A stretch of 64,000 bases of DNA from Alphaproteobacteria bacterium. Lineage in GTDB: Bacteria > Pseudomonadota > Alphaproteobacteria > MPNO01. The stretch covers positions 879,068 to 943,067 of the forward strand of contig OY763326.1 in assembly GCA_963667285.1 (NCBI GenBank), written 5' to 3'. The translations under genes and the position numbers were made by a program. This document shows, piece after piece, positions 29,937 to 45,794 of the stretch (its first letter is position 1; every line of letters begins with the position of its first letter). The notes beneath the pieces are model-generated. The model was not told the DNA's origin. It saw only the letters and a program-made list of their open reading frames with translations, and searched no databases.

Positions 29937-30293
29937 ATGCCGAGCGTCACCGTCGTCAACCGGGGCAACCGGTCTTTCGAGGTCAGGCAGGGCCGCGCGC
30001 TGCTGACCGGCGCGCGCGAAGCCGGGCTGCCCTGGCGCTGGTATTGCGGCGGCGAGGCGCTCTGCGGAACCTGCTGCATGCTGGTGGTCGACGGCGCGCT
30101 CGACGAGCCCAACGAGATCGAGCGCTATTTCATCGAGGGCTGGGGCTACCATCCCGGCTTTCGCCTCGCCTGTCAGGCGCGTGTCGTCGAGCCGGTCGCG
30201 GTAATATCCTGCGCCGAGGAAGGCTATGACAGGGATGCGGTGCTCGCCGCCTACGACGCGGCGGTGGAGCAGAGAAAAGGGGATCGACCATGA
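29937..30293 (+). CDS. [2Fe-2S] ferredoxin
   Basis: 118 aa with a CGGEALCGTCC ... C cysteine cluster typical of 2Fe-2S ferredoxins. Overlaps the next gene by 4 bp. Confidence 0.7.
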   Translation: MPSVTVVNRGNRSFEVRQGRALLTGAREAGLPWRWYCGGEALCGTCCMLVVDGALDEPNEIERYFIEGWGYHPGFRLACQARVVEPVAVISCAEEGYDRDAVLAAYDAAVEQRKGDRP

Positions 30294-32009: not shown

Positions 32010-32029
32010 CCGGCGGCGGTGCCGGGAGC

Positions 32030-32794: not shown

Positions 32795-32814
32795 AGAACG
32801 GCGAACCCGCCCGG

Positions 32815-34750: not shown

Positions 34751-35377
34751 ATGAACATTCTGGAAGACGTGACACTCCCCGGCCGGCAAGGCGGCGCCTG
34801 GATCGTGCGGAAGGGACAGCATGTTCGGGTCATCGACGTCGAAGGCGGCCCGATCGGCGATTTCGTCTGCTTCAACGCCGACGACCTCACCGAGCGGTTC
34901 AGCCAGACGCGCACCCGGACGAACCACGGCAAGTTTCTCCTGTCCGAGGGAGACCATCTCTACTCCCGCGCAAACAACCCGATGCTGACGATCGTGGAGG
35001 ACAGCTACGGCATCCACGACCTGCAATACGGAATGTGCTCGGCCTGGGTCTACGAGAATTTCAGGAACGACGAGTATCGCGGCTTCGCGGCGGACGCGTT
35101 GACACTGGGCGGACCGCTCGGAATGCCGACTTTCGGCTGCTACGAAGTGCTGCAGCGGGCGCTCGCGGACTGGCCCATCGAGCCGCACGACATTCCGGAC
35201 CCGATCAACCTGTTCCAGACCGTCGACTACGATGCGGACAGGGGAACCTTCACCCTTGTCGACGGGCGCAGCAAGCCGGGCGATTACATCGACTTCGTCG
35301 CCCGCATGGACACGCTGTGCGCCCTCAGCGCCTGCCCGTCGATGGGGCGGGCGCTCCGCGTCCAGATCCACGAATAG
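34751..35377 (+). CDS. DUF1989 family protein (urea-carboxylase-associated protein family)
   Basis: 208 aa. Conserved GIHDLQYGMCSAWVYEN and FVARMDTLCALSACP blocks of DUF1989. Intact copy of the remnant at 16507-16900. Confidence 0.7.
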   Translation: MNILEDVTLPGRQGGAWIVRKGQHVRVIDVEGGPIGDFVCFNADDLTERFSQTRTRTNHGKFLLSEGDHLYSRANNPMLTIVEDSYGIHDLQYGMCSAWVYENFRNDEYRGFAADALTLGGPLGMPTFGCYEVLQRALADWPIEPHDIPDPINLFQTVDYDADRGTFTLVDGRSKPGDYIDFVARMDTLCALSACPSMGRALRVQIHE

Positions 35378-35384
35378 GAACGGA

Positions 35385-36527
35385 TCAGGCGGACCACCCG
35401 GCAAGCAAGTCGGCGAGCTCGGCGATCAGCTCGTCCCCGTCCGGCTGGGTGAAGGGGAAGTGCATCGCGCCCTTGAGTAGATAGGTCTCGCAGCGCGATC
35501 CCACGGCCTCGGTGTACCGGCCGGTCTCCGAAGGAAAACAGCCCTCGTCGGCCGAGTACTCGACATTCAGCACCGGCACCGAGGTTTCCGCCAGGCGCGC
35601 CGGGCCATCGGCGACGCTGAGCGGGCTCCACTGGCTGAGATAGGACCGGAGCGTGGTGAAGCGGCCGAACACGCCGGCGGAGTAGTTCACCGCCCGCGCC
35701 TTGCCGAAGATCGTCGCATCGCCCGCCGGCCGGTCGTTGGGATCGATCGAGCGGTCGAGCGTGGCCGGCTTCGCGCAAGTACGGTGGATGACGAAGCCTT
35801 GGTCGTCGGCACGGGGATGGGCCTCCAGCTGACGCAGCCGCGCCAGTACCCACCCGGTGATCCGGTCGTGCCGCGCGGCCTGTGCCGCCTCGTAGCGCGC
35901 GAGCCAGTCGCGATCGTAGGGCGGCCCGTTGTCGGGATCGTACATGTCGAGTGCCGGGTCGGCCGAAAGCGCATCCGCCTCGTCGATCACCGACGGATCG
36001 AGCGCCGAGCGGAACTGCTGGTGGCGCCCCGGATGGGCGCTCAGCAGGACCACCGCGTCCGCCGGTGGGAGGTCTTCGGGTACGATGTCGAAGGGCCGGC
36101 CGTCGGGCGTCGTCTCGATGGTGAGGGTCTCGGCCTGCGCCTGATAGAGCGACATCACCGGACCGCCGCCCGAGTTGCCCACCAGAACGACGCGCCGGTA
36201 ACCGCGCTCCCGCAGCCAGCGTACGCCTCCGCCGACATCCTGGATCAGCCGCTCCATCAGCAGCGCGCTGTCGTTGTGGAGATGGCGGCTGGTGAGGGTG
36301 AGCACGGCGCGGCCGCGCGCGGCCAGCGGCGCCTGGGCGTAGTGGTGCAAGAAGCTCACCGCCGGGTGCATGAAGAGGAACGCGACATTCTTGCCGCAGC
36401 CCGCATCGGCGATCTTGCCGAGGATTCGGGGGCGCACCCGGTCGGCGATCCCCTGCCCGACGGGCGGGGTATTGCTCGGCCGCAGGTCTATCGAGACGAG
36501 CTCGCCGCGCTCGGCGGGGTGGGTCAT
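35385..36527 (-). CDS. Alpha/beta-hydrolase-fold protein with G-N-S-G-G elbow (paralog of 33582-34730)
   Basis: VVLVGNSGGGPVMSLYQ and KGAMHFPF. Collinear similarity to its paralog over the full length. Start ATG overlaps the stop of the upstream HAAO-like gene (ATGA). Confidence 0.6.
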   Translation of the reverse strand: MTHPAERGELVSIDLRPSNTPPVGQGIADRVRPRILGKIADAGCGKNVAFLFMHPAVSFLHHYAQAPLAARGRAVLTLTSRHLHNDSALLMERLIQDVGGGVRWLRERGYRRVVLVGNSGGGPVMSLYQAQAETLTIETTPDGRPFDIVPEDLPPADAVVLLSAHPGRHQQFRSALDPSVIDEADALSADPALDMYDPDNGPPYDRDWLARYEAAQAARHDRITGWVLARLRQLEAHPRADDQGFVIHRTCAKPATLDRSIDPNDRPAGDATIFGKARAVNYSAGVFGRFTTLRSYLSQWSPLSVADGPARLAETSVPVLNVEYSADEGCFPSETGRYTEAVGSRCETYLLKGAMHFPFTQPDGDELIAELADLLAGWSA

Positions 36528-37087
36528 GCGCCCCTGGCCATGTCCTCGCGCAGCTCGGCCGCCACCGCCCCCCATCCATAGGGAGCGAGATCGATCTCGT
36601 CATGCGTCCGGCCGCAGGACGGGCAGGTCCGGCGCGCCGCGTCGGCGTTGAACGCGCGGCAGGCGCGGAGATAGCCCTCCTGCGGGATCTCCTCCGCCGT
36701 GTCCCAGACATCGCGGGCGATCTCCGCGCCGCAGCCCTCGCAATACCAGGCGACCGCCTCGAGGCCGGGGTGCTCGGCCTTGTAGCGAAGCTGGACGCAT
36801 TCGCCGTCGGGGACGATGCGATGCGGCGTGCCGGAGGGCACGTAGACGAAATCGCCCGGAACCACCGGGTGGAAACGGACCGGGCCGTCGGGGAATTCGA
36901 CCCGGCCCTCGCCCGACATGTTGACCAGCACCGTGTCGTGCTCGCAGATCAGGAAGAAGGGCTGGGGCGTGTCGTTGCGGCTGAGGCAGATCTGCGGGTC
37001 CACGCCCGCCGGCAGCATGGGGTACTCGTCGTAAGGGCCGCGCTTCGCGGCCTCGTCGAAGGCGGCGAAGCGCTGCTTGCGTGCCAT
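36524..37087 (-). CDS. HAAO-like cupin dioxygenase with C-terminal Cys4 ribbon
   Basis: VAWYCEGCGAEIARDVWD...ARRTCPSCGRTHDE closely mirrors the bacterial 3-hydroxyanthranilate 3,4-dioxygenase C-terminus (FEWYCDACG...RRCPHCG.VHP). Cupin block PFFLICEHDTV...VPSGTPHRIVP. 187 aa, matching HAAO size. Confidence 0.55.
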   Translation of the reverse strand: MARKQRFAAFDEAAKRGPYDEYPMLPAGVDPQICLSRNDTPQPFFLICEHDTVLVNMSGEGRVEFPDGPVRFHPVVPGDFVYVPSGTPHRIVPDGECVQLRYKAEHPGLEAVAWYCEGCGAEIARDVWDTAEEIPQEGYLRACRAFNADAARRTCPSCGRTHDEIDLAPYGWGAVAAELREDMARGA

Positions 37088-37102
37088 TGCGGGCTCCTCC
37101 GC

Positions 37103-37828
37103 CTAGCCGGCCGCGGCCGCCGTCTCGCTCAGGCTCTGATGCGCCTCGCGGATGATGTCGGTCATGTCGCGGTAGCGGTCCCAGCCCCAGCGCCCGAGCG
37201 GGAACGGCGGGTTGACGTTGCCGCATTTGGGGCAGGTCCGGTTGCGCTCATCGGCGTTGTAGTTGAGCGCCGCCTGAGCGCTGCCATAGATCGTGTGCAG
37301 GTGGCCGACGGGACCGACCTCGTCCTTCTGCTTTCCCCGTCTGGGCGGCGTCGAATCGAATTCTTCCCGGTAGATTTCGGTCGAGCAGGCGGCGCAGGTG
37401 AAGGCAACGGCCTCTCTTTGCGGGACGCCGGTGGACTGGCGCTGGGTGACCGAGACCAGCGAGAAGCTTTCGGGACTGTCCGGTTCGCTCAACAGGTTTC
37501 CGACGCCGTGGCTGCGCGCGCTGGCGCGCACCAGCCCGGCCTTGCCGCGCCCCGTGGTGGCGCCCGAACCGAAGACGATCGCCACCTCGTCGACCGTGTT
37601 CTCATGCTCGAAATAGCCGTAATCGCCGCCCGACTGGCCGTAGAACAGCGCGATGGTGGGCACCATCGCGCCTTCATCCACATAGGGGAACATCGGCGTC
37701 AGCGTGCTGACCAGGGTGCGCGCGTAGTCGTAGACATTGCACTTCAGCGGCTGCTTGTCCGTCGCCGGCGGCGGCATGGAGACCGTCTTTCCCGCCCTGT
37801 CGTTCACATCCCCCTCCTCACCTTCCAT
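37103..37828 (-). CDS. HAAO-like cupin with C-terminal Cys4 ribbon (more divergent paralog)
   Basis: VAFTCAACSTEIYREEFD...RNRTCPKCGNVNPP. Putative metal ligands in FEHENTVDE (H...E spaced by 6, as in HAAO). The start is uncertain; an internal Met lies at about 37777. Confidence 0.45.
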   Translation of the reverse strand: MEGEEGDVNDRAGKTVSMPPPATDKQPLKCNVYDYARTLVSTLTPMFPYVDEGAMVPTIALFYGQSGGDYGYFEHENTVDEVAIVFGSGATTGRGKAGLVRASARSHGVGNLLSEPDSPESFSLVSVTQRQSTGVPQREAVAFTCAACSTEIYREEFDSTPPRRGKQKDEVGPVGHLHTIYGSAQAALNYNADERNRTCPKCGNVNPPFPLGRWGWDRYRDMTDIIREAHQSLSETAAAAG

Positions 37829-37939
37829 GCCGTCAGGCGCGACAGCGAGCCCTCGATTATAGGCGCGGCGCGGCTCGCGCCAAAGCCGGCCGACACCGAC
37901 TGAAGGTCGAGGCCCGGGCGCGCCGGATCAACTTTCGCG

Positions 37940-38704
37940 CTAGCTGTTCCACCACGGCACGTCGCTGAACGAGCGCAGATCGAGCTCGTTCGTCCAGGTC
38001 GAGCGGTGCTGGCGCGCGAGGTGGAGATAGGTGTCGGCGATCTTCTCGGGCAGCATGAGCCCATCATGCTCCATGCCCCGGCTCTCGCGCAGCGCCCGGA
38101 ATTTCTCCGGGCCGAGCATCTTGCCCAGCGTATCCGGGGCATCGACCGCGCCGTCGACCAGTATGTGGACGATGTGAATCCCGCTGGGGCCGAATTCGGC
38201 ATTCAGCGTCTGGCACAGCATGCGCCGTCCGGCCATCGACGCGGCGTGCGAATGCTGGCCCTCGTTGCCGCGCACGGCCGCCGTGGAGGAGGTGACGAGC
38301 ACGGTGCCGCGGCCGCGTTCCGCCATCCGGGGGCAGAGCGCGGACGCGGCGCGGAACAGGCCGAAGGTCGCCATGCGCCAGCCGAGTTCGAAGACCTTGT
38401 AGCTGGTCTCCTCCAGGCTTCTGCCGCCGACCTGCGAGCCGAGATTGTAGAGCGCCACCTCGATCGGCCCGATCTCCTCCTCGACCGCGGCGATGCGCGC
38501 CTCGATGCTGTCCGGCTGCACGGCGTTCAGCAGATAGCCCGTGGCGTCGCCGCCCTCGCTCCGGATGGCCTCGACCAGCCGGTTGAGGCCGTCCTCGTCG
38601 GAGCGGCGGCAAAGCACCGCATGGTAGCCCTCTCTCGCGAACCGCATTCCCACCGTGCCGCCGATGCCGGCGCCGGCGCCGATGACGAGACAAACCGGTT
38701 TCAT
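37940..38704 (-). CDS. Short-chain dehydrogenase/reductase (SDR)
   Basis: Start MKPVCLVIGAGAGIGG (TGxxxGIG Rossmann) with a GGAGAGGAG SD. Catalytic tetrad region. 254 aa. The 5' two-fifths of the track ORF is an artefact. Confidence 0.8.
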   Translation of the reverse strand: MKPVCLVIGAGAGIGGTVGMRFAREGYHAVLCRRSDEDGLNRLVEAIRSEGGDATGYLLNAVQPDSIEARIAAVEEEIGPIEVALYNLGSQVGGRSLEETSYKVFELGWRMATFGLFRAASALCPRMAERGRGTVLVTSSTAAVRGNEGQHSHAASMAGRRMLCQTLNAEFGPSGIHIVHILVDGAVDAPDTLGKMLGPEKFRALRESRGMEHDGLMLPEKIADTYLHLARQHRSTWTNELDLRSFSDVPWWNS

Positions 38705-38823
38705 CGCAATCTCCTCTCCCATGCTTTCCGCCGTGGCGGCCCGAATGTCCCGGCCCCACCCGCCGGATACCGCGACGGACGCCGGGCTCCCGCACCGCGC
38801 GGCGGGACACGACGGGGCCGCGT

Positions 38824-39357
38824 TCAGCCTCCGGCCGCGGATGGATGAATGGCGACGAAGCGCTCCTCGGTCCAGCCCTTGTCGTAAGGGGTGCAGAAAA
38901 TACCCTCGTACTGCACGGTACGGACCTTCCACTCTCCGTCGACGCGGCGGAACTCGCAGCTGTACCGACCCATGATCCAGACCGCTTCGCGGCTGTCGCC
39001 CGGCCCTTGCAGGGTCGCCGGTTCGAAGCACAGCCAGCTGCCATCCGCCGAATCTCCGTCGACTTCGATGGCCTCCGTGCCGAGCAGATGGCTGGATTCG
39101 CGGATTCTCGTGCCTGCGGAGAATTTCTTCCTGAGCGCCGCGCGCCCGCGCTCGTCCATCGCGACATCGGCGAAGCCGGATGCACTGGTCCACTTCCCGT
39201 CGTCGGTATAGAAGGCGACCATTCGCTCCCCGTAGCCCGGATGCTCGCGGTCGTCGGCCTTGTGCATCATGTCGGTCATCAGCCGGCGTATGGCGGATTC
39301 GTCCTCCAGCCGCCGCAGCCTGCCGCGCAATTCCTCGATCGTCTTCTCGACGTCCAC
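38824..39357 (-). CDS. NTF2/SnoaL-like protein, putative small (beta) subunit of the upstream Rieske dioxygenase
   Basis: About 177-aa C-terminal portion of a long track ORF. NTF2-like composition. Lies 44 bp downstream of a Rieske alpha gene, in the position and size expected for a beta subunit. GTG start inferred, with a GGGGAG SD. Confidence 0.5.
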   Translation of the reverse strand: MDVEKTIEELRGRLRRLEDESAIRRLMTDMMHKADDREHPGYGERMVAFYTDDGKWTSASGFADVAMDERGRAALRKKFSAGTRIRESSHLLGTEAIEVDGDSADGSWLCFEPATLQGPGDSREAVWIMGRYSCEFRRVDGEWKVRTVQYEGIFCTPYDKGWTEERFVAIHPSAAGG

Positions 39358-39401
39358 CGCGTCGCTCCCCGCCCTGTCCGGCCTGCCGTCCCGGCGCGAA
39401 T

Positions 39402-40685
39402 CTAGGCTTCGGCCAGCGCGGCCTCGCCCCATTTCCATTCGCGGCGCGCCAACACCTGATCGACCGAGGTGTCGGCAGGCACGATTACCATTCGGCTGTC
39501 GATGTCCGGGAAGGCGACCGTCCCGTCGAGCGCGGGCAATGTCTCGCCGGCCATCTGCTTGCGGACCAGATCCAGCAGGTAGCGGCGCAAATGCATCACC
39601 AGGACGTCGCGGGAACCGATCTGCTCGAGGCTGCGGTCGACGATCGGCCCCATGCTCTGCAGGATCGCGACATCCTGCGCGGCGATGCCGCGGATGCCGG
39701 AGAAGTTCTCGTGTTTCTGCCGTTCGCGGTCGAGCAGATGCATGTTCTCGAGATTGCCGCGCGAGCGGTACTCGATCTCGGGATCGATCAGGTCGTGGCC
39801 GAAATTGTGTTCGAGGGTCCGCCGCTCTTCCTCGTCCGCCGGCGTGTCGGGATCGTAGTGGACGTAGTAGAGCCAGTGATGCTCGTCGTCGATCGGTACC
39901 CAGGCGTGCCAGATGTAGCGCAGCTTGGTGCGCCCGGCGGGGACGATGGTGTGGCAGGGAACGACGAAGGGATCGACCCAGTAGAGCGCCCTGGCGGGAT
40001 CGGGCGTGTTCCAGCGCCAGATCGTCTGGAAGCCGAACGCCTCGTCCCGGGTGAATCCCCTGGGCCGCGGATCGACCCCCATCGCCTCGCGGGTCTTGTC
40101 GATCGGCGCCTCTCCGATCGGACTGTGCAGGAAGGAGGGGTGCGAGATGTCGATATCGGCTTCGAGGCCCTGCAGGTAATTGCATTCCTGGCGGTAGTGG
40201 TAGCCCAGCACGTGGCTTGCCGGCAGCCTGGTGAACAGGAAATCCGGGAAGGGCGGCGGCACCGGCTCGCGCCCCATATAGGTCCAGACGATGCCCCCCG
40301 CCTCATGCGTCGGATAGGCGGTGACCTCGATGGTCTTGCCGAAATCGGGGTTGAGCTCGGTCGGCGTATCGACGACCCGCCCCTCCACGTCGAACTTCCA
40401 GCCGTGATAGACGCAGCGCAGGCCGCACTCTTCGTTGCGACCGTAGAGCAGCGACACGCGGCGGTGCGGGCAGAACTCGTCGAGCAGGCCGACCCGACCG
40501 TCGGTGTCGCGAAACGCGACCAGCCGTTCGCCCAAGAGCTTGATGGCGACCGGCGCGCCGTCCGGCTCCGGCAGCCGTTCGGCGAGCATGGCCGGCAGCC
40601 AGTAGCTGCGGAATATCTCGCCCATCGGCGTTCCGGCGTCGGTACGCACCAGGAGCTCGTTCTCTTCCCGCGTTATGGCTGCCAA
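39402..40685 (-). CDS. Rieske non-heme-iron ring-hydroxylating oxygenase, alpha subunit
   Basis: Rieske CPHRRVSLLYG...CVYHGWKF. Catalytic-domain mononuclear-Fe region. 427 aa. Confidence 0.8.
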   Translation of the reverse strand: MAAITREENELLVRTDAGTPMGEIFRSYWLPAMLAERLPEPDGAPVAIKLLGERLVAFRDTDGRVGLLDEFCPHRRVSLLYGRNEECGLRCVYHGWKFDVEGRVVDTPTELNPDFGKTIEVTAYPTHEAGGIVWTYMGREPVPPPFPDFLFTRLPASHVLGYHYRQECNYLQGLEADIDISHPSFLHSPIGEAPIDKTREAMGVDPRPRGFTRDEAFGFQTIWRWNTPDPARALYWVDPFVVPCHTIVPAGRTKLRYIWHAWVPIDDEHHWLYYVHYDPDTPADEEERRTLEHNFGHDLIDPEIEYRSRGNLENMHLLDRERQKHENFSGIRGIAAQDVAILQSMGPIVDRSLEQIGSRDVLVMHLRRYLLDLVRKQMAGETLPALDGTVAFPDIDSRMVIVPADTSVDQVLARREWKWGEAALAEA

Positions 40686-40938
40686 GACGCTTTCCCCGCG
40701 CTGATGGATCGAGGTGGACCGGGTGCCACGCTCCCGCCGGCTACCGAAACGCTGGACCTGCCGTCAAGCTCCGGCGGCTCGCCGCCGCTTCGGTGACCGC
40801 GCCGTCCCGGCCTCACGGGCCGATGCCCGGGACGCCGGACGAAGACCGAGTATCACAAAGGGTGCAGAGCGCGGCAAGTTGGCCGCGGGCGGACGCGGTA
40901 ACGGTTTCATGGCGCGGGCGCCCGGACATGTCCCGATT

Positions 40939-41439
40939 TCAGAACGGCGCCAGCAGGGCGCCGTGCGGCGCATCGCAGTTGAGGAGGTCGACGCGCTTGC
41001 TGGCTATACGCCACTCGCCTGCCACGCGCCGAAGCCTGTAGTCGTAGGCGCCGGCGAAGACCCGCTGGTCGTCGGCGCGATAGTCGAGCATCACGAAGTT
41101 CGCGGTGACGCGACAGGCGTCATCGCCGTTCCTTTCGCGTATTGCAACGTTGCCGACGACATGGCGGGTGCGAACGGGCGGGATGTTCGCGAATGCCTTG
41201 TCGTGCCGCAGCCGACGCGCCCGCGCCCGCAACAGGGTGACGCCCTCGTGGATCAGCGACGCGGTATCCGAGGCGCTGGACTGGTCCGGTTGCGACGGCA
41301 CCCAGTAGAGTCCGTCTTCGCAGAACAGGTCGACCCATTCGTCGTAGCGTCCGCCGTCGATCGACGCGCATTCACGAAACAGGAAGTCCTCGATCTCCCT
41401 CTGCAGCAGCAAACCCTCCAGGGACGGGCTGTCGTCCAT
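40939..41439 (-). CDS. Ring-hydroxylating dioxygenase beta (small) subunit
   Basis: 166 aa. N-terminal LQREIEDFLFRECASIDGGRYDEWVDLFCEDGLYWVP is the hallmark beta-subunit motif. Overlaps the upstream alpha gene by 8 bp. Confidence 0.8.
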   Translation of the reverse strand: MDDSPSLEGLLLQREIEDFLFRECASIDGGRYDEWVDLFCEDGLYWVPSQPDQSSASDTASLIHEGVTLLRARARRLRHDKAFANIPPVRTRHVVGNVAIRERNGDDACRVTANFVMLDYRADDQRVFAGAYDYRLRRVAGEWRIASKRVDLLNCDAPHGALLAPF

Positions 41440-41445
41440 CGGCGC

Positions 41446-42756
41446 TCACCCCGACCGCATATAGTCGAGCCAGGCGCGATATTGCGTCCGAATCGGCAGC
41501 TCGCTGGTGCCGGACCCCGCGTAGCCACCCCCGTCGAGCGGTCGGTCGCATCCCTCCTCCCGCTCCAGGTTGATCCATTCGGGCTCGGCGGCGGCAAACC
41601 CGGCCTGGCACCCCTTGTAGATCTCCAGATCGTCCGTGGCGATCAGCGAGGCCGGAGAGTTGAGCGTGGTGAGAAAGCGCACCGCGCTCTCGTAAAGCCA
41701 CTCCGGCGCGCCCTTCAGACGGAAACAGAAACTGTGCGCGATCGTGCGGTCGACCGCGACCGGTTCCACGAAGCGCATCGACTGGAACCGCGGGTTGATC
41801 ACGAAATTGGGATAGATCAGGTGGTTGTACGTGTCCCAGCCGAGTACCGCATCGGCCTGCCCGGTACCGAGGCGGGCGGCGAGAAGCTCGCGATAAGCGT
41901 TGAATTCGGGGGTGTCGGGCATGGCCGAAATCATGCCGCTTTCATAGAACCCGCCGATATAGCTGTGGCCGCGAGCGAAGCCGCAGGTTCCCGCATTGGA
42001 CATGCCCGACAGCGGGATCCCGTTGGCTGCATACATTTGCAACGCCTGCTGTGTCGCGGGATCCGGCGGCGCGCCTGTCTCGAGATCGCGGCCCACGCTG
42101 ATCGACGAATCGTGGACGAAGGTGGGATGGACCAGATCGTTGGCGTTTTCCATGTGCAGCTTCCAGTTGCCCGGGTAGTCCTGGCGAAAGCCGCCGCCCG
42201 CGAGCTCGACCTCGCCGTCGGGCGCGCGGTCGACGAGGTTGTCGAGGGCCTTCGCAGCCGGGCCGAGAAAGCTGGGGAGATCGGGACCGTCCGTGGCAAG
42301 GCTGGCGAACACGAAGCCGCGGTAGTCCGCGGTACGCGGCACCGGGGCAAGCCCGGCATGGGCACCGCCCGGGGAATCGGGGCGGGCATACCCGTCCGGC
42401 TGGGGAACCCCGAGCAGGCGCCCGTCCCGACCGTAGACCCAGCCATGGTAGGGGCACGCAAACCGGTCGGCGGTGCCGCGGTCGGCAATGCACACCAGCA
42501 TGCCGCGATGCAGGCACCGGTTGCGCAGAACGCGGATTTCGCCATCTTCGCCTCGGACGACGAGCAGCGGCTCGCGTCCAATCCTGGCGCGCAGGAAATC
42601 GCCCGGCCGGCGAAGCTGGCTTTGGTGCGCCACGAAGATCCAGGCACGCCCGAATATCCGCTCCATCTCCAATTCGAAGATGGCGGGATCGGCGTAGACG
42701 CGTCGATGGACACGGCCGGGCTCGACCAGGGCTTCCACCGAGGACAGGCCAGTCAT
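41446..42756 (-). CDS. Rieske non-heme-iron ring-hydroxylating oxygenase, alpha subunit
   Basis: Rieske CLHRGMLVC...CPYHGWVYG. 436 aa. Followed by its beta subunit. Confidence 0.8.
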   Translation of the reverse strand: MTGLSSVEALVEPGRVHRRVYADPAIFELEMERIFGRAWIFVAHQSQLRRPGDFLRARIGREPLLVVRGEDGEIRVLRNRCLHRGMLVCIADRGTADRFACPYHGWVYGRDGRLLGVPQPDGYARPDSPGGAHAGLAPVPRTADYRGFVFASLATDGPDLPSFLGPAAKALDNLVDRAPDGEVELAGGGFRQDYPGNWKLHMENANDLVHPTFVHDSSISVGRDLETGAPPDPATQQALQMYAANGIPLSGMSNAGTCGFARGHSYIGGFYESGMISAMPDTPEFNAYRELLAARLGTGQADAVLGWDTYNHLIYPNFVINPRFQSMRFVEPVAVDRTIAHSFCFRLKGAPEWLYESAVRFLTTLNSPASLIATDDLEIYKGCQAGFAAAEPEWINLEREEGCDRPLDGGGYAGSGTSELPIRTQYRAWLDYMRSG

Positions 42757-42821
42757 ATCGGGGCTCCCCGCTGGTTCGGTATCCTAAGCGCCGGGCATGC
42801 GGGTAGGAAACCCCGCCGCCC

Positions 42822-44123
42822 TTATCCCATCGTATCGGGCAGGAACAGAACGATGGATGGGAACGCGACCAGTAGCAGAATTCGCAGGACGTCGGTGACG
42901 ATGAATGGCGCCACACCGCGGTAGATGGTCGACAGCCTGACGTCCCTGGCGACACCGCGGATCACGAACACGTTGAGACCGAATGGCGGCGTGATCAAGC
43001 CCAGCTCCACCGTCATGACCACCACCACGCCGAACCAGATGGGGTCGAAGCCGAGATCGACGATCGCCGGGAATATGATCGGCACGGTCAGGATGATCAT
43101 TGCCAGCGAATCCATCAGGCAGCCGAGTATCAGGTAGAACAACAACAACAGCAGCAGGATGCCGTAAGGTCCGATCGGCAGCGCAAGCAGCAGGTCGGTC
43201 AGTTTCTGCGGCGTCTGGGTAATGGCAAGAAAGACGCCGAACAGCAGGGCCCCGATCAGGATGGTGAATACCGCCCCGGTGGTGCGGACGCTCTCGATCA
43301 GACAGTCGAGCGTTTGCCGCAGGGTCAGGCTGCGCCGAATGACGGCGATCAGGAAAGCGCCGGCCGCGCCCATGCCCGCGGCCTCGGTCGGCGTGAACAC
43401 GCCGCCGTAAATCCCGCCGATCACGAAGAAGAACACCAGCGCGACCGCCCACACATTGCGCAGCGACGCGATCCGTTCGCGCCACGACGCCCGGACCCCG
43501 GCCGGCACCGCATCGGGGTTGAACCAGGCAATGATCTGCACTGTGGTCATGTACATCGCGACCGCCAGCAGGCCCGGAATGAAGGCGGCGATGAACAGGC
43601 GACCGATATCCTGTTGGGTGATGATGCCGTACACCGCCAGCACCACCGACGGCGGAATCAGAATGCCGAGCGTGCCGCCCGCGGCGATAACGCCGGTCGA
43701 AATGCTGCTGCTATAGCCGTAGTCGCGCATTTCCGGCAGGGCGACCTTGGCCATCGTCGCTGAGGTCGCGACCGAGGAGCCGCAGATCGCCGCGAAACCG
43801 GAGCAGGCCGCGAGCGTCGCCAGCGACAAGCCGCCGCGGCGGTGGCCGAGCCAGGCGTTGCCGGCGCGGAACAGCTCGCGGCTCATACCGGACGCGCTGG
43901 CGAACGCGCCCATGAGGATGAACAGCGGGATCAGCCCGAACGCGAAGTCGGTGGCGTTGCGGATCGGCGACAGCGCCACCAGGCGCAGCGCCGGGTCGAT
44001 GCCGCTCAGGCTGGCGAAGCCGCCGATGCCGACGATCGCCATGGCGATACCGACGGGAACGCGCAGCAACATCAGCACGAGCAGGACGACGAAGCCGAGC
44101 CCTGCGATGAGGTCGTTGTCCAC
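42822..44123 (-). CDS. dctM: TRAP transporter large permease (DctM family)
   Basis: DctM motifs (GGIYGGVFTPTEAAGMG, TPPFGLNVFV). Start inferred at a GTG near 44123. The upstream part of the track ORF is an artefact. Confidence 0.85.
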   Translation of the reverse strand: MDNDLIAGLGFVVLLVLMLLRVPVGIAMAIVGIGGFASLSGIDPALRLVALSPIRNATDFAFGLIPLFILMGAFASASGMSRELFRAGNAWLGHRRGGLSLATLAACSGFAAICGSSVATSATMAKVALPEMRDYGYSSSISTGVIAAGGTLGILIPPSVVLAVYGIITQQDIGRLFIAAFIPGLLAVAMYMTTVQIIAWFNPDAVPAGVRASWRERIASLRNVWAVALVFFFVIGGIYGGVFTPTEAAGMGAAGAFLIAVIRRSLTLRQTLDCLIESVRTTGAVFTILIGALLFGVFLAITQTPQKLTDLLLALPIGPYGILLLLLLFYLILGCLMDSLAMIILTVPIIFPAIVDLGFDPIWFGVVVVMTVELGLITPPFGLNVFVIRGVARDVRLSTIYRGVAPFIVTDVLRILLLVAFPSIVLFLPDTMG

Positions 44124-44134
44124 CCGCGCCGCCG

Positions 44135-44629
44135 CTATTCGTGTGGCAGGCGCGCGCCGGTGCCGACCGCGCGGCGGCGCAGCAGCCGCCACAGGCGGAT
44201 CGCCATCAGGATCGTCGCCGCGACGATACCGACCCACGCCAGGGCGTAGAACGGCCAGATGTCGAGGCGCAAGTCGAAGGTCTGCGAGGTCGTCTCGTAG
44301 GTCACGACGATCTTGCGCACCAGCATCCGCGCGAACACCGCCATCGCCACGAGCGAGCAGGCGGTGGCGAAGATATCGATCAGGCGCTTGCCGCGAAGGC
44401 CGACCAGGGTCCACAGCACGTCCATCTGGATGTGCTCGTCGCGATAGCCGGCAACGGCGATGCCCCAGAACACCACAACGCCGATCATCAGCCGACCGAT
44501 ATCGAAACTGTCGGGGACCGGAAAGTTGAACAGGTAGCGCAGAAGGACCGAGGCGAAGGTCAGCGCGGCAACGAAGGCAAGGAATAACCCGGCCAGCGTT
44601 TCGATGCCGGAGATTGCTTTCTGGACCAC
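44135..44629 (-). CDS. dctQ: TRAP transporter small permease (DctQ family)
   Basis: 164 aa, four TM segments, between dctP and dctM. Confidence 0.8.
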   Translation of the reverse strand: MVQKAISGIETLAGLFLAFVAALTFASVLLRYLFNFPVPDSFDIGRLMIGVVVFWGIAVAGYRDEHIQMDVLWTLVGLRGKRLIDIFATACSLVAMAVFARMLVRKIVVTYETTSQTFDLRLDIWPFYALAWVGIVAATILMAIRLWRLLRRRAVGTGARLPHE

Positions 44630-44709
44630 GGCTGAAGACGCAAGCGCCGACGAATGGGCAAGTCGGGTGGGGCGCGGGTCGGCCCCGCCCGATGGTCGCG
44701 GCCGGCGCC

Positions 44710-45738
44710 CTACTGGAGCAGCGCGTTGTGCTTCTTCAACGCGGCTATCAACTCGTCATAGGCCTTGTCGGCGTCGATACCCTTCTTGGTCGCCCCTTCC
44801 GCCCAATGGGCGCGAATCGGCTTCGCCGCCGCATGCCATGCGTCCTGGGCTTCCCGCGGGATCGTGTAAACCTCATGCCCCTTCATGTTCTGCAGCTTGG
44901 TGCGGCCGAGGAATTCCCATTCGGTGAACGCCTCGGTCACCTTGCGCGCCCAATCCGGGGTGCAATGCGCATCGACCGCCTGCTTCTGGGCCGACGAGAA
45001 CTTGGCGTAGGTGCCCTTGTTCATGACCCAGATGAACGCGGTGGACGCGATCGGAAAGTCCATGTGGTATTTGAGAGGCTTGTGGATGCCCCAGATCTGC
45101 ATCGAGTTCCACGAGAAGAACACCGCGTCGGCAATGCCCCGCTCGACAAGGTCACGGGTATCGCCGCCCGGCGCGTAGACGCTGCTGCCCCCGAGGTTCT
45201 TGACCAGCTGGGCGATGGTGCCGTTCATCGGCCGGATCTTCAGGCCCTTGAGGTCCTGCGGCATCACGATCTTCCTGGGCTTGCTGGAGATGACACCCGG
45301 CTCCAGCGCATGCGCCAGGCAGAAATGGACGTCGTTCATCTCGTACTGAGCGTATTTCCGATACCACTCGGTCAAGGCCGTCGACGCGGGCCGGCTGTCC
45401 GACACCAGCAATGGCAGCTCGATCGCCGAGATTATCGGCCATCGACCGGGGATGAAGCCGGGGTTGTACCAGGCGATATCGACGATGCCGTCCTTCGCCA
45501 TGTCGTATTGATCCTTGGCCTTGCCAAGCTGCTGCGACGGGAAAATGGTGATCTTGATCGTCCCGCCTGACGCGTCCTCGACCGACTTGGCCCACGGCAC
45601 CATTCCCTTGGTGTGCAGCGGAAACTTTGCCGGCAGATGATGCGCATAGCGCAGATTGAAAGTCTTCTCGGCGGCCTTGGCGCCGGACAGCGCGAACGCG
45701 GCGACCAAACAGATAGCCAGAGCCGTCTTGGACCACAT
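44710..45738 (-). CDS. dctP: TRAP transporter substrate-binding protein (DctP family)
   Basis: Start MWSKTALAICLVAAFALSGAKAA (signal peptide). DctP-like body. The first about 140 codons of the track ORF are an artefact. Confidence 0.8.
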   Translation of the reverse strand: MWSKTALAICLVAAFALSGAKAAEKTFNLRYAHHLPAKFPLHTKGMVPWAKSVEDASGGTIKITIFPSQQLGKAKDQYDMAKDGIVDIAWYNPGFIPGRWPIISAIELPLLVSDSRPASTALTEWYRKYAQYEMNDVHFCLAHALEPGVISSKPRKIVMPQDLKGLKIRPMNGTIAQLVKNLGGSSVYAPGGDTRDLVERGIADAVFFSWNSMQIWGIHKPLKYHMDFPIASTAFIWVMNKGTYAKFSSAQKQAVDAHCTPDWARKVTEAFTEWEFLGRTKLQNMKGHEVYTIPREAQDAWHAAAKPIRAHWAEGATKKGIDADKAYDELIAALKKHNALLQ

Positions 45739-45794
45739 GGTAGCTGTCCTCCCCTTTTTTCTGGGATGAATTAGATGGAGCCGGGCGAGGGGGG

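What the first reader, a model, noticed from the sequence alone, without database searches (positions are those of the whole stretch)
35385..45738. Ten-gene minus-strand catabolic cluster: TRAP importer, two Rieske dioxygenase alpha/beta pairs, SDR, two HAAO-like cupins, GNSGG hydrolase
All genes sit on one strand with short gaps or overlaps: dctPQM, alpha/beta, alpha/beta(NTF2-like), SDR, cupin-Cys4, cupin-Cys4, hydrolase. Classic aromatic pathways use one Rieske dioxygenase, a cis-diol dehydrogenase, one ring-cleavage enzyme and a hydrolase. This cluster instead has two different terminal oxygenases and two 3-hydroxyanthranilate-dioxygenase-like ring-cleavage candidates, fed by a TRAP (organic-acid) importer. 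That points to a pathway for an anionic, probably amino- or hydroxy-substituted aromatic acid whose ring-cleavage step uses an HAAO-type enzyme rather than a LigB or vicinal-oxygen-chelate (type I) extradiol dioxygenase. No ferredoxin or reductase gene is inside the cluster. The only candidate in the window is the lone ferredoxin at 29937.
Basis: partly seen in the sequence, partly recalled or inferred. Interest (0 to 1): 0.7.

Follow-up and report, generated by a model that had tools for sequence, protein, structure and literature searches.

The report
Two unrelated gene modules, not one pathway
The flagged block is an aromatic-acid breakdown operon, which has its own conventional ring-opening enzyme just outside the flagged coordinates, sitting by chance next to a separate three-gene cassette for an uncharacterised two-subunit enzyme that resembles 3-hydroxyanthranilate dioxygenase.

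Summary

**Module 1 (47520 to 37940, minus strand).** This is a conserved ten-gene operon: MhpB-type (LigB-family) extradiol dioxygenase, EthD, TRAP dctPQM, an IadDE/HcaEF-like Rieske alpha/beta pair, a phthalate/isophthalate-dioxygenase-like Rieske alpha, a SnoaL_4 protein and an SDR. The ring-cleavage enzyme passes NCBI's equivalog cutoff for 3-carboxyethylcatechol 2,3-dioxygenase. This contradicts the claim that cleavage is HAAO-type rather than LigB-type.

**Module 2 (37828 to 35385).** Cupin1, cupin2 and the hydrolase form a separate cassette.
- It has its own conserved promoter-like element.
- In relatives it travels with the convergent LLM-ferredoxin-cupin3-ABC-hydrolase2-DUF1989 operon.
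- It never accompanies Rieske genes in 77 other loci.

**The two cupins.** Both have the HAAO fold. They are adjacent in 76 of 77 loci and fused in 19. Only cupin1 keeps a His-x5-Glu...His motif, so they are probably one heteromeric enzyme rather than two ring-cleavage candidates.

Substrates of both modules remain unknown. No reductase gene lies in the window.

The parts
46570..47520 (-). Module 1, gene 1: MhpB-type class III (LigB-family) extradiol dioxygenase, 316 aa.
   Evidence: Pfam LigB E 6e-32. NCBIfam equivalog NF009910, 3-carboxyethylcatechol 2,3-dioxygenase: 327.6 bits against a cutoff of 291. PDB 8k04 MhpB E 1.3e-75. First gene of the operon in L087, L089 and L091.
45795..46520 (-). 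Module 1, gene 2: EthD-domain protein, 241 aa, role unknown.
   Evidence: Pfam EthD E 7e-5. TIGR02118 EthD family: 36.4 bits against a cutoff of 30.5. Conserved between LigB and dctP in L087, L089 and L091.
44710..45738 (-). TRAP solute-binding protein DctP, 342 aa.
   Evidence: Pfam DctP E 1e-30. Best PDB match 7nqg, E 1.4e-90. Next matches 7nsw, 7nrr and 7nr2, E about 1e-34.
44135..44629 (-). TRAP small membrane subunit DctQ, 164 aa.
   Evidence: Pfam DctQ E 9e-23.
42822..44123 (-). TRAP large membrane subunit DctM, 433 aa.
   Evidence: Pfam DctM E 2e-109. TIGR00786: 340 bits against a cutoff of 268.
41446..42756 (-). Rieske oxygenase alpha1, 436 aa, of the IadD / phenylpropionate-dioxygenase-like clade.
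   Evidence: Rieske plus Ring_hydroxyl_A. PDB 7yls/8h2t/9o71 (Variovorax IadD) E 1e-94; HcaE 8k0a E 1e-53. 40.6% identical to Variovorax paradoxus by tblastn. Rieske Cys/His and the Fe ligands His210, His215 and Asp376 align with those of IadD.
40939..41439 (-). Rieske oxygenase beta1, 166 aa.
   Evidence: Ring_hydroxyl_B E 2e-28. 6-bp gap after alpha1.
39402..40685 (-). Rieske oxygenase alpha2, 427 aa (407 aa from the later ATG), of the phthalate family (alpha-only type).
   Evidence: Rieske plus LigXa_C E 4e-29. PDB 9ina (isophthalate dioxygenase; PMC12445078) E 7e-78. 7fjl E 1e-75 (listed only as a Rieske (2Fe-2S) domain protein) and 7fhr, putative phthalate 4,5-dioxygenase alpha, E 3e-74.
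38824..39357 (-). SnoaL_4 / NTF2-like protein, 177 aa. Constant partner of alpha2, not a canonical beta subunit.
   Evidence: SnoaL_4 E 6e-19 and no Ring_hydroxyl_B hit. Directly follows the LigXa_C gene in L083, L087, L089 and L091. Weak PDB hits to NTF2-fold eliminases and dehydratases: LinA, BaiE, scytalone dehydratase.
37940..38704 (-). SDR-fold protein, 254 aa. Last gene of module 1 here and in L091, absent in L087. Has an atypical active site.
   Evidence: adh_short E 1e-24. No NCBIfam model reaches its cutoff.
37829..37939 (-). Junction spacer between the two modules, with a promoter-like element at 37883-37856 (TTGGCG, 16 nt, TATAAT).
   Evidence: This is the only sigma-70-like match in 34600-48000. 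The window matches L091 up to the SDR stop and then diverges. It matches L004 from GCTTTGGCG through TATAAT onward, although L004 has a different upstream sequence.
37103..37828 (-). Module 2: cupin1, an HAAO-fold protein. 241 aa from the ATG, or more likely 234 aa from the GTG at 37807. Probable catalytic subunit.
36524..37087 (-). Module 2: cupin2, an HAAO-fold protein, 187 aa. Probable non-catalytic partner.
   Evidence: AF2 model pLDDT 94.5. Foldseek best hits are HAAO at TM 0.70-0.80, and the model also matches the PnpC small subunit. NCBIfam HAAO equivalog: 33 bits against a cutoff of 220. Leu46 and Thr52 stand where cupin1 has His75 and Glu81. Always adjacent to cupin1, or fused to it.
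35385..36527 (-). Module 2: hyd, a serine hydrolase with no Pfam family, 380 aa. Overlaps the cupin2 stop by 4 bp.
   Evidence: No Pfam hit even at E<=5. Invariant GNSGGG, Asp327 and His356. The profile's PDB hits are weak, and nearly all are alpha/beta hydrolases (best E 5e-4). Gene overlap shown.
34751..35377 (+). Module 2, convergent operon: DUF1989 protein, 208 aa.
   Evidence: DUF1989 E 2e-46. Same position in L004, L089 and L090.
33582..34730 (+). Module 2: hyd2, a paralogue of hyd (60% identical), 382 aa.
30984..33570 (+). Module 2: ABC importer. NMT1/SsuA-like binding protein 30984-32009, ATPase 32030-32794, permease 32815-33570.
   Evidence: NMT1 E 8e-25. ABC_tran and BPD_transp_1 from the public gene calls of the same strain. 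Frames checked.
30290..30943 (+). Module 2: cupin3, a third protein with the HAAO-like Cys4 tail and an FxHxNxxxE motif, 217 aa. Overlaps the ferredoxin stop by 4 bp.
   Evidence: NCBIfam HAAO: 36.9 bits against a cutoff of 220. Sequence, alignment, overlap.
29937..30293 (+). Plant-type [2Fe-2S] ferredoxin, 118 aa. It is embedded in module 2, not in the Rieske operon.
   Evidence: Fer2 E 7e-12. Sits between the LLM and cupin3 genes in L004, L089 and L090.
27959..29907 (+). Module 2: alpha/beta hydrolase 27959-28759 and luciferase-like monooxygenase 28756-29907 (4-bp overlap).
   Evidence: Abhydrolase_1 E 4e-14. Bac_luciferase E 8e-50. LLM genes also lie beside the cupin pair in 16 other loci.

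Best explanation
The interval joins two independent units.

**Module 1 (47520 to 37940, minus strand)** is a ten-gene operon for an aromatic, or possibly N-heteroaromatic, carboxylate.
- A TRAP system imports the anion.
- Two Rieske oxygenases hydroxylate the ring. One is an alpha3beta3-type enzyme of the IadDE/HcaEF clade. The other is a phthalate-family alpha with a conserved NTF2-like partner.
- An MhpB-type (LigB-family) extradiol dioxygenase cleaves the resulting 3-substituted catechol.
- Electrons must come from a reductase encoded elsewhere. The meta-cleavage hydrolase and lower-pathway genes are also elsewhere.
- The most likely substrate class is phenylpropanoid-like: 3-phenylpropionate, cinnamate, or hydroxy- or methoxy-derivatives that funnel to 2,3-dihydroxyphenylpropionate.

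**Module 2 (37828 to 35385)** is a separate cassette with its own promoter-like element. It is functionally tied to the convergent LLM-ferredoxin-cupin3-ABC-hyd2-DUF1989 operon.
- Cupin1 and cupin2 form one heteromeric HAAO-fold metalloenzyme.
- Cupin1 carries the His-x5-Glu...His site.
- Cupin2 is a degenerate partner.
- The translationally coupled serine hydrolase probably processes the product.

**Shown here:** gene content, module boundaries, folds, conserved motifs, and pair/fusion statistics.

**Inferred:** substrates, subunit roles, catalytic chemistry, and transcription units.
For: **Boundaries.**
- The order LigB-EthD-dctPQM-alpha1-beta1-alpha2-SnoaL(-SDR) recurs with three different flanks. 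In the window and L089 the flanks are gltD and the cupins. In L091/L092 they are Amidohydro_2 and narK/narGHJI. In L087/L088 the operon is followed by convergent RidA and OCD genes, with no SDR.
- A 67%-identical alpha1 in L083 again sits with TRAP genes, a LigXa_C gene, SnoaL_4 and glyoxalase-type (VOC) genes, and no cupins.
- The cupin1-cupin2-hyd cassette plus the convergent operon is syntenic in L004, which is about 90% identical. There the upstream genes are unrelated.
- The breakpoint maps to the 111-bp SDR-cupin1 spacer. The TTGGCG-16-TATAAT element is conserved with L004.

**Ring cleavage.** The MhpB equivalog cutoff is passed, and 8k04 matches at E 1e-75.

**Uptake.** The binding protein matches 7nqg at E 1e-90.

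**Oxygenases.**

**Cupin heteromer.**
- The two genes are adjacent in 76 of 77 loci across many phyla.
- They are fused, in the order cupin2-cupin1, in 19 loci. In the six fusion sequences that were printed, the cupin2 half has lost its Cys4. In all 19 the only CxxC pairs and the FxHxNxxxE motif lie in the cupin1 half.
- HAAO is the best structural match for both.
- FAA-hydrolase, MarR, LLM and transporter genes recur as neighbours.

**Coupling.** 4-bp overlaps link cupin2 to hyd and Fer2 to cupin3.
Against: - No transcript data exist. Read-through from the SDR gene into cupin1 cannot be excluded, and there is no terminator-like site in the spacer. One promoter-like hit in 13 kb is what chance gives; only its position and its conservation make it meaningful.
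- The substrate class is weakly constrained. alpha1 is closer to the IAA oxygenase IadD than to HcaE. alpha2's nearest relatives act on benzene dicarboxylates. I link 7nqg to hydroxycinnamate-binding TarP proteins from memory (Bisson et al. 2022) and could not verify it with the tools.
- The SDR lacks the canonical Tyr/Lys, so the cis-diol dehydrogenase step is not secured.
- The cupin1 triad assignment rests on motif spacing and predicted strand positions.
- The heteromer is inferred from gene adjacency and fusion, not from a modelled or measured complex.
Confidence: 0.7

Rival explanations
1. All genes from dctP to the hydrolase are one pathway for an amino- or hydroxy-substituted aromatic acid. 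The two HAAO-like cupins are its ring-cleavage enzymes and the GNSGG hydrolase processes the product.
For: - All the genes share one strand.
- The SDR-cupin1 gap is only 111 bp and has no terminator-like site.
- Both cupins have the HAAO fold.
- Cupin1 has a His-x5-Glu...His motif.
Against: - An MhpB equivalog heads the operon.
- The cupins and hydrolase are absent from the same operon in L087 and L091.
- None of the loci fetched with the cupin query has close homologues of the operon's Rieske, SnoaL_4 or SDR genes. The only Rieske matches there are 26-49% identical.
- The synteny breakpoint lies in the spacer.
- Cupin2 lacks two metal ligands, and the two cupins are fused in 19 loci, so they are one enzyme and not two.
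Confidence: 0.07
2. Module 1 is an iad-like pathway for indole-3-acetate or a related indole carboxylate. alpha1/beta1 performs the IadDE-type first oxidation, the NTF2-like protein opens the epoxide, and the SDR acts like IadJ.
For: - IadD is the best structural-database match (E 1e-94, 40.6% identical).
- IadDE is now proposed to make a 2,3-epoxide that is hydrated and then dehydrogenated (PMC12633357). An NTF2-fold protein and an SDR would fit these steps.
- Arg329 and Asn210 of the IadD pocket are conserved.
Against: - Five of the seven non-ligand IadD pocket residues differ: L211A, F251N, H311Y, K322N, Y362F.
- There are no homologues of iadC, iadF (CoA ligase), iadG (thiolase) or iadI in the operon or elsewhere in the window.
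- The iad route ends in anthranilate without extradiol cleavage, yet this operon starts with an MhpB equivalog.
- IadDE itself does not accept IBA or IPA.
Confidence: 0.13
3. The juxtaposition is functional in this strain. The cassette was recruited so that hyd serves as the missing meta-cleavage-product hydrolase (MhpC role) of module 1, with the cupins as passengers or accessory enzymes.
For: - Module 1 has no C-C hydrolase of its own.
- hyd has a Ser-Asp-His arrangement.
- One weak profile hit is to an MCP hydrolase (4lxg, E 0.32).
Against: - hyd overlaps the cupin2 stop by 4 bp and has a paralogue in the convergent operon.
- In the loci fetched with the cupin query, hyd homologues turn up in nine, always near a cupin pair and never beside close homologues of the operon's Rieske genes.
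- Other Defluviicoccus genomes run module 1 without it.
Confidence: 0.1

Closest known systems
E. coli hca/mhp pathway for 3-phenylpropionate and 3-hydroxyphenylpropionate (HcaEFCBD, MhpABCDEF)
   Same: - A Rieske alpha/beta dioxygenase of the same broad clade (HcaE 8k0a E 1e-53; NCBIfam HcaE 199 bits, HcaF 68 bits).
- An SDR-fold gene in the position where HcaB would act.
- An MhpB-type LigB-family extradiol dioxygenase that passes the equivalog cutoff.
   Different: - No HcaC ferredoxin, HcaD reductase, or MhpC/D/E/F.
- A TRAP importer rather than an MFS permease.
- A second, phthalate-family oxygenase with an NTF2-like partner, and an EthD protein.
- alpha1 scores far below the HcaE equivalog cutoff (199 against 830).
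- The SDR lacks the catalytic Tyr/Lys.
Variovorax iad locus (IadCDE plus IadF-J, IadK2) for indole-3-acetic acid
   Same: alpha1/beta1 are the closest solved relatives of IadD/IadE. The Rieske and Fe ligands are conserved, and identity is 40.6%.
   Different: - No IadC reductase, CoA ligase, thiolase or amidase.
- Uptake by TRAP, not by an ABC system.
- Five of the seven pocket residues differ.
- An extradiol dioxygenase is present.
Isophthalate dioxygenase and the related phthalate-family Rieske oxygenases in the PDB (9ina, 7fjl, 7fhr)
   Same: alpha2 shares the Rieske plus LigXa_C-type catalytic domain at E 1e-74 to 1e-78. These enzymes act on aromatic carboxylates and use a PDR-type reductase.
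   Different: - The closest homologues found on plasmids are about 40-45% identical.
- It is always followed by a SnoaL_4 gene.
- No cognate reductase gene is nearby.
- Substrate unknown.
3-hydroxyanthranilate 3,4-dioxygenase (HAAO/NbaC)
   Same: - A cupin barrel plus a C-terminal four-Cys (rubredoxin-like) site in cupin1, cupin2 and cupin3.
- HAAO is the best structural match for both modelled proteins.
- Cupin1 has His-x5-Glu and a later His-x3-Asn.
   Different: - Two different subunits, or a fusion, instead of a homodimer.
- Cupin2 has Leu and Thr at the His and Glu positions.
- The carboxylate-binding Arg47 and Arg99 of HAAO are not matched in cupin1, and Glu110 is Gln (Arg47, His51 and Glu57 numbering is from memory).
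- Scores of 18-37 bits against an equivalog cutoff of 220.
- The cupin1 profile finds no HAAO by sequence.
Heteromeric ring-cleaving dioxygenases with a degenerate subunit (AmnAB and LigAB of the LigB fold; hydroquinone dioxygenase PnpCD of the cupin fold)
   Same: The logic of one catalytic and one non-catalytic paralogous or partner subunit. The cupin2 model also matches the PnpC small subunit (4zxa_A, 5m22_G).
   Different: A different fold (AmnAB, LigAB) or a different architecture (PnpD is a large bicupin). No sequence relationship was detected. The analogy rests on general knowledge of those systems.
TarPQM-type TRAP transporters for lignin-derived phenylpropanoids
   Same: The DctP matches 7nqg at E 1.4e-90, and 7nsw, 7nrr and 7nr2 at about 1e-34. 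I recall these entries as the TarP homologues of Bisson et al. 2022. The paper's existence is confirmed by a citation, but the link from these PDB entries to the paper is not.
   Different: The ligand of 7nqg could not be checked with the tools. The binding-site residues were not compared.

Membership tests
3-hydroxyanthranilate 3,4-dioxygenase (HAAO/NbaC) | Cupin fold with a C-terminal four-Cys metal site | tested here: met
   - cupin2: Foldseek TM 0.70-0.80 to 1yfu, 5v26 and 1zvf.
- CxxC...CxxC is invariant in both families.
3-hydroxyanthranilate 3,4-dioxygenase (HAAO/NbaC) | 2-His-1-Glu iron site (His51, Glu57, His95) | tested here: inconclusive
   - cupin1: His75-x5-Glu81 and His107-x3-Asn are invariant and lie on predicted adjacent strands. 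No residue-level alignment to HAAO could be obtained.
- cupin2: Leu46 and Thr52 stand at the His and Glu positions, and only His89 is kept. Not met for cupin2.
3-hydroxyanthranilate 3,4-dioxygenase (HAAO/NbaC) | Substrate-binding Arg47, Arg99 and Glu110 | tested here: not met
   - cupin1 has invariant Gly71 four residues before His75.
- It has no Arg four residues after His107.
- It has Gln129 in the TQRQ strand that parallels HAAO's ERQR.
- The Arg47 position is taken from memory of the HAAO literature.
3-hydroxyanthranilate 3,4-dioxygenase (HAAO/NbaC) | Score above the curated family cutoff | tested here: not met
   - NF009763: cupin2 33.2 bits, cupin1 17.7, cupin3 36.9, against a cutoff of 220.
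- TIGR03037: 30.4 against 145.95.
- No Pfam 3-HAO hit.
MhpB, 3-carboxyethylcatechol 2,3-dioxygenase (LigB superfamily) | Score above the NCBIfam equivalog cutoff, and full-length similarity to a solved MhpB | tested here: met
   - NF009910: 327.6 bits against 291. Three sibling models fall below their own cutoffs.
- 8k04: E 1.3e-75 over residues 44-352.
MhpB, 3-carboxyethylcatechol 2,3-dioxygenase (LigB superfamily) | Extradiol cleavage of 2,3-dihydroxyphenylpropionate | not testable with these tools
   Needs an enzyme assay.
Rieske non-haem iron oxygenase, alpha3beta3 type | Rieske CxH...CxxH, mononuclear Fe 2-His-1-Asp, and a separate Ring_hydroxyl_B subunit | tested here: met
   - alpha1 aligns Cys/His with IadD Cys85, His87, Cys106 and His109.
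- His210, His215 and Asp376 align with IadD His216, His221 and Asp377.
- beta1: Ring_hydroxyl_B E 2e-28.
IadDE indole-3-acetate oxygenase | IAA-binding pocket (Asn210, Leu211, Phe251, His311, Lys322, Arg329, Tyr362) and the iadC/F/G/H/I/J gene context | tested here: not met
   The pocket reads Asn, Ala, Asn, Tyr, Asn, Arg, Phe, so 2 of 7 are kept. No iad accessory genes lie in the window.
HcaEF 3-phenylpropionate dioxygenase | NCBIfam equivalog cutoffs | tested here: not met
   HcaE 199.4 bits against 830. HcaF 67.9 against 230.
Phthalate-family (alpha-only) Rieske oxygenase | Rieske domain plus a LigXa_C-type catalytic domain, with no Ring_hydroxyl_B partner | tested here: met
   alpha2: Rieske E 4e-17 and LigXa_C E 4e-29. 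9ina, 7fjl and 7fhr match at E 1e-74 to 1e-78. The neighbouring protein matches SnoaL_4 only.
TRAP transporter | DctP, DctQ and DctM all present and adjacent | tested here: met
Classical SDR dehydrogenase | Gly-rich NAD(P) motif and the catalytic Ser-Tyr-x3-Lys | tested here: not met
   GAGAGIGG is present.
Alpha/beta-hydrolase serine hydrolase | G-x-S-x-G elbow followed by Asp and then His, on an alpha/beta fold | tested here: inconclusive
   GNSGGG, Asp327 and His356 are invariant in 12 sequences. The profile's PDB hits are weak, with a best E of 5e-4, and nearly all are alpha/beta hydrolases. No Pfam model matches. No structure model was made.

The most novel reading that the evidence does not exclude
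Cupin1 plus cupin2 define an undescribed class of HAAO-fold oxygenase.
- It is built from one catalytic and one degenerate subunit. In about a quarter of loci the two are fused into one roughly 430-aa chain.
- It is spread thinly over uncultured Alphaproteobacteria, Binatia, Chloroflexota, Eremiobacterota, Myxococcota and Acidimicrobiia.
- It acts on an unknown substrate that is not 3-hydroxyanthranilate.
- A ferredoxin-coupled third paralogue (cupin3) hints at a redox-dependent variant.

If so, it would be the cupin-fold counterpart of AmnAB/LigAB-type heteromeric ring-cleaving dioxygenases.
Probability: 0.35. Interest if true: 0.6.

Novelty: new member of a known kind. Interest (0 to 1): 0.38.

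Why it matters
**For the scan.** The apparent oddity was a Rieske pathway that opens the ring with HAAO-type cupins and has no LigB or VOC enzyme. It comes from drawing the cluster boundary two genes short and from reading a strain-specific juxtaposition as an operon. Corrected, module 1 is an uncharacterised but conventionally built aromatic-acid operon in sponge- and wastewater-associated Defluviicoccus. It is useful mainly as a target for assigning substrates to an IadDE-like and a phthalate-family oxygenase that always travel together.

**What is left over.** The more interesting item is the cupin1/cupin2 family.
- It has only about 200 clusters at 50% identity among 1.84 billion proteins.
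- It has no Pfam model and no literature that I could find.
- The evidence that the two proteins work as one HAAO-fold enzyme is clear.

Working out its substrate would add a new branch to the cupin ring-cleaving dioxygenases.

Tried and rejected
- **Single-operon reading.** Rejected on synteny and the mapped breakpoint.
- **SnoaL_4 as a canonical beta subunit of alpha2.** Rejected. It has no Ring_hydroxyl_B match, and alpha2 belongs to an alpha-only family. The conserved adjacency still suggests a functional partner.
- **The ferredoxin at 29937 as the Rieske electron donor.** Judged unlikely. It overlaps cupin3 by 4 bp and sits in the LLM/ABC operon in every relative.
- **Sequence-level alignment of cupin1 to HAAO.** No PDB hit with the single sequence or the profile. 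hhalign of the cupin1 and cupin2 profiles aligned only the C-terminal half.
- **Structure prediction with locus-derived homologues.** I repeated it with database homologues.
- **Pfam search for hyd, cupin1 and cupin3 at E<=5.** Nothing useful.
- **Plasmid searches for closer characterised relatives of alpha1 and alpha2.** At most 45% identity, with only generic names.
- **Literature searches.** Searches for 7NQG and for heteromeric HAAO-like cupins found nothing relevant. Bisson et al. 2022 is not held.
- **Terminator scan.** No site fell in an intergenic gap of the block.
- **ORFs at 33075-34730 (551 aa) and 34655-35404 (249 aa).** These are not genes as first called. The first merges the tail of the permease frame with hyd2. 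The second is the antisense shadow of the DUF1989 gene.

Full report
**1. Are the genes there?**

Yes. The window is about 68% G+C, so I picked real frames by third-position G+C and checked each start and stop. From 45738 down to 35385 the minus strand carries eleven genes, not ten.

| Gene | Coordinates | Evidence |
|---|---|---|
| dctP | 44710-45738 | Pfam DctP E 1e-30 |
| dctQ | 44135-44629 | Pfam DctQ E 9e-23 |
| dctM | 42822-44123 | Pfam DctM E 2e-109 |
| Rieske alpha1 | 41446-42756 | Rieske + Ring_hydroxyl_A |
| beta1 | 40939-41439 | Ring_hydroxyl_B |
| Rieske alpha2 | 39402-40685 | Rieske + LigXa_C |
| SnoaL_4 protein | 38824-39357 | SnoaL_4 E 6e-19 |
| SDR | 37940-38704 | adh_short E 1e-24 |
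| cupin1 | 37103-37828 | no Pfam hit |
| cupin2 | 36524-37087 | sub-threshold Cupin_2 only |
| hyd | 35385-36527 | no Pfam hit |

**2.

- Directly upstream on the same strand lie an EthD-domain gene (45795-46520, 56-bp gap) and a LigB-family gene (46570-47520, 49-bp gap).
- The LigB-family product scores 327.6 bits on NCBIfam NF009910, the equivalog for 3-carboxyethylcatechol 2,3-dioxygenase (cutoff 291).
- It also matches the solved MhpB structure 8k04 at E 1.3e-75.
- Beyond it come gltD and, probably, gltB, which are housekeeping genes (gltD by Pfam; the long ORF beyond it was not scanned).

| Gene | Coordinates |
|---|---|
| alpha/beta hydrolase | 27959-28759 |
| luciferase-like monooxygenase (LLM) | 28756-29907 |
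| Fer2 ferredoxin | 29937-30293 |
| cupin3, a third Cys4 cupin-like protein | 30290-30943 |
| NMT1/SsuA-like ABC binding protein | 30984-32009 |
| ABC ATPase | 32030-32794 |
| ABC permease | 32815-33570 |
| hyd2, 60% identical to hyd | 33582-34730 |
| DUF1989 protein | 34751-35377 |

**3. One unit or two?**

The source is a Defluviicoccus-type alphaproteobacterium. I looked at the same genes elsewhere.

*Rieske operon in other contexts.*
- In a MAG with 87%-identical alpha1 (L087/L088) the order is LigB-EthD-dctPQM-alpha1-beta1-alpha2-SnoaL_4. Convergent RidA and OCD genes follow, with no SDR, cupins or hyd.
- In another MAG (L091/L092) the same nine genes plus the SDR are followed by a dctM fragment, narK and narGHJI.
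- In a more distant contig (L083, alpha1 67% identical) TRAP, LigXa_C, SnoaL_4 and alpha1/beta1 sit with glyoxalase-type (VOC) genes, a dienelactone hydrolase and an amidase. Again there are no cupins.

*Cupin cassette in other contexts.*
- I fetched 78 genome loci that encode cupin2 relatives.
- tblastn with all the window proteins found a cupin1 homologue next to cupin2 in essentially every one.
- None of them has close homologues of the operon's Rieske, SnoaL_4 or SDR genes. The only Rieske matches are 26-49% identical.
- In L004 (Defluviicoccus, about 90% identical) the cupin1-cupin2-hyd cassette and the whole convergent operon are syntenic with the window. The genes upstream of cupin1 are different.

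*The junction.*
- The window aligns with L091 through the SDR stop codon and then diverges.
- It aligns with L004 from GCTTTGGCG...CGCGCCTATAAT onward.
- That element (TTGGCG, 16 nt, TATAAT; 37883-37856) is the only sigma-70-like match in 34600-48000.

So two syntenic blocks meet inside the 111-bp SDR-cupin1 spacer. Only contigs of this same strain (L089, L090) share the juxtaposition.

**4. Module 1 (47520 to 37940)**

*Uptake.* The TRAP binding protein matches PDB 7nqg at E 1.4e-90, and 7nsw, 7nrr and 7nr2 at about 1e-34. I recall these as the TarP homologues that bind hydroxycinnamates (Bisson et al. 2022). The paper is cited, but I could not verify the link between these PDB entries and the paper.

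*alpha1/beta1.*
- Its closest solved relative is Variovorax IadD/IadE (E 1e-94; 40.6% identity).
- HcaE comes second (E 1e-53).
- The Rieske and iron ligands are conserved.
- Of the seven non-ligand residues lining IadD's IAA pocket, only Asn210 and Arg329 are kept. The others read L211A, F251N, H311Y, K322N and Y362F.
- None of the iad accessory genes described in PMC12633357 is present. It is therefore not an iad locus.

*alpha2.*
- It belongs to the alpha-only phthalate family: 9ina, isophthalate dioxygenase (PMC12445078), E 7e-78, and 7fjl, E 1e-75.
- It is always followed by the SnoaL_4 gene.
- That protein does not match Ring_hydroxyl_B. Its faint PDB hits are NTF2-fold eliminases and dehydratases.
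- I treat it as a conserved accessory of unknown role. It might act as a dehydratase on a dihydrodiol or as an epoxide-opening enzyme, but that is speculation.

Its assignment as the cis-diol dehydrogenase is therefore insecure.

*Electron supply.* No PDR-type reductase or Rieske ferredoxin was found among the window ORFs scanned.

*Proposed sequence of steps.* This is inferred apart from the family assignments.
1. TRAP uptake of an aromatic carboxylate.
2. Ring hydroxylation by one or both Rieske enzymes, with electrons supplied in trans.
3. Formation of a 3-substituted catechol.
4. Extradiol cleavage by the MhpB-type enzyme.
5. Lower-pathway steps encoded elsewhere.

The MhpB equivalog and the binding-protein match point to phenylpropanoid-type acids. 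Other routes that converge on 2,3-dihydroxyphenylpropionate, for example from coumarin or quinoline derivatives, are not excluded.

**5. Module 2 (37828 to 35385, plus the convergent operon)**

*Fold.*
- The cupin2 model (pLDDT 94.5) has HAAO as its best PDB match (TM 0.70-0.80).
- Both families have four invariant Cys, as in the rubredoxin-like site of bacterial HAAO.

*The two are not equivalent.*
- Cupin1 has invariant F73-x-H75-x-N77-x3-E81 and H107-x3-N. These lie on the strands where cupins bind metal.
- Cupin2 has F44-x-L46-x-C48-x2-D51-T52 in the matching stretch and keeps only His89.

*They work as one protein.*
- The genes are adjacent in 76 of 77 loci from many phyla.
- In 19 loci they are fused in the order cupin2-cupin1. 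In the six fusions printed, the cupin2 half has lost its Cys4. In all 19 the only CxxC pairs and the metal motif lie in the cupin1 half.
- This is Rosetta-stone evidence for a single heteromeric enzyme with one catalytic and one degenerate subunit.

*It is not HAAO itself.*
- Scores are 18-37 bits against an equivalog cutoff of 220.
- The cupin1 profile finds no HAAO by sequence.
- The residues that bind 3-hydroxyanthranilate are not conserved (partly from memory of the HAAO literature).

*Family size.* The family is small: 207 representative clusters at E<=1e-3 among 1.84 billion.

*Recurrent neighbours elsewhere.*
- An NMT1_3/TAXI-like protein, in 43 loci.
- An SCO4226-like protein, in 21 loci.
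- LLM genes, in 16 loci.
- MarR regulators, FAA-family hydrolases, class II aldolases and various transporters.

This set fits small aromatic or heteroaromatic catabolism.

*hyd.*
- It overlaps the cupin2 stop by 4 bp.
- It has invariant GNSGGG, Asp and His.
- Its profile finds only weak PDB hits, nearly all of them alpha/beta hydrolases.
- It is probably a serine hydrolase acting after the cupin enzyme, but it accompanies the pair only in the Defluviicoccus group and a few others.

It keeps that position in all relatives, so it more likely serves module 2.

**6. Verdict**

- *Observation:* partly confirmed. The genes are right, but the count and the boundaries are wrong.
- *Interpretation:* the general idea of an aromatic-acid pathway with two oxygenases and no reductase holds. 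The distinctive claim of HAAO-type rather than LigB-type cleavage, with two ring-cleavage candidates, does not.
- Module 1 is a new, uncharacterised member of the familiar Rieske plus extradiol meta-cleavage design.
- The cupin1/cupin2 heteromer is the item worth following up. I found no description of it.

**7. Limits**

- There are no transcript or enzyme data.
- Substrates are inferred from relatives about 40% identical.
- Several HAAO and FabG reference details come from memory and are marked as such.

Noticed in passing
window 37940-38704 (-): The SDR-fold protein has His and Met where classical SDRs have the catalytic Tyr and Lys (SHAASM against NYAAAK of FabG). It is probably not a standard dehydrogenase.
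   Followed up: partly
window 29937-30943 (+): A third HAAO-like protein, cupin3, has an FxHxNxxxE motif and a Cys4 tail but lacks the stretch that holds cupin1's His107. It is translationally coupled (4-bp overlap) to a plant-type 2Fe-2S ferredoxin and follows a luciferase-like monooxygenase.
   Followed up: partly
window 33582-34730 (+) and 35385-36527 (-): Two convergent paralogues, 60% identical, belong to a roughly 380-aa putative serine hydrolase family with no Pfam model. GNSGGG, Asp and His are invariant, and there is a long insert between the Ser and the Asp. A DUF1989 gene (34751-35377) lies between them.
   Followed up: partly
L012, L013, L015, L022, L025, L027, L036, L038, L050 and others (e.g. 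L013:9998-11296): Natural cupin2-cupin1 fusion proteins of about 420-470 aa. The gene order is the reverse of the unfused pairs (cupin1 then cupin2). In the fusions I inspected, the cupin2 half has lost its four Cys.
   Followed up: yes
L062:11247-12248 and 42 other loci: The commonest neighbour of the cupin pair is an NMT1_3/TAXI-like 'binding protein'. In the representative I inspected it seems to lack a signal peptide, so it may be cytoplasmic rather than a transporter component. A 93-aa SCO4226-like protein directly precedes cupin1 in 21 loci.
   Followed up: no
window 2913-6103 (+), 10710-13761 (-), 42822-45738 (-), 56105-59042 (-): There are four complete TRAP transporter gene sets in 64 kb. 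They are interleaved with amidohydrolases, hydantoinase A/B (19797-23712), an M24 creatinase-like peptidase (59236-60456), an OCD/mu-crystallin gene and a class IV aminotransferase (53987-56089). The region is dense in organic-acid and cyclic-amide catabolism.
   Followed up: no
window 23709-24923 (+): A further Rieske oxygenase alpha of the homotrimeric type (Rieske plus Aromatic_hydrox) lies directly after the hydantoinase B gene. It is unrelated to the two in the finding.
   Followed up: no
window 8058-10642: A divergent pair of an Amidohydro_2 gene (8058-9089, minus) and a UbiD-family decarboxylase gene (9197-10642, plus). In L091 an Amidohydro_2 gene sits divergently upstream of the MhpB-like gene. 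I did not test whether the two are orthologous.
   Followed up: no
window 34-1682 (+): An IS21-type IstB ATPase gene (843-1682) is preceded by an ORF with no Pfam hit (34-846), possibly the end of istA. This would be a mobile element at the window edge.
   Followed up: no
window 40686-40938: The 253-bp gap between beta1 and alpha2 is the longest gap inside module 1 (313 bp if alpha2 starts at the later ATG). I did not examine it for a small ORF, an internal promoter or an RNA element.
   Followed up: no
L084:10001-12306 and L085:10001-11765: The large family of alpha1 homologues at 50-55% identity, including Tara Oceans contigs, is typically followed by a small glyoxalase-fold gene rather than sitting in a TRAP/LigB operon. 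This suggests a different and widespread function for that sister clade.
   Followed up: no
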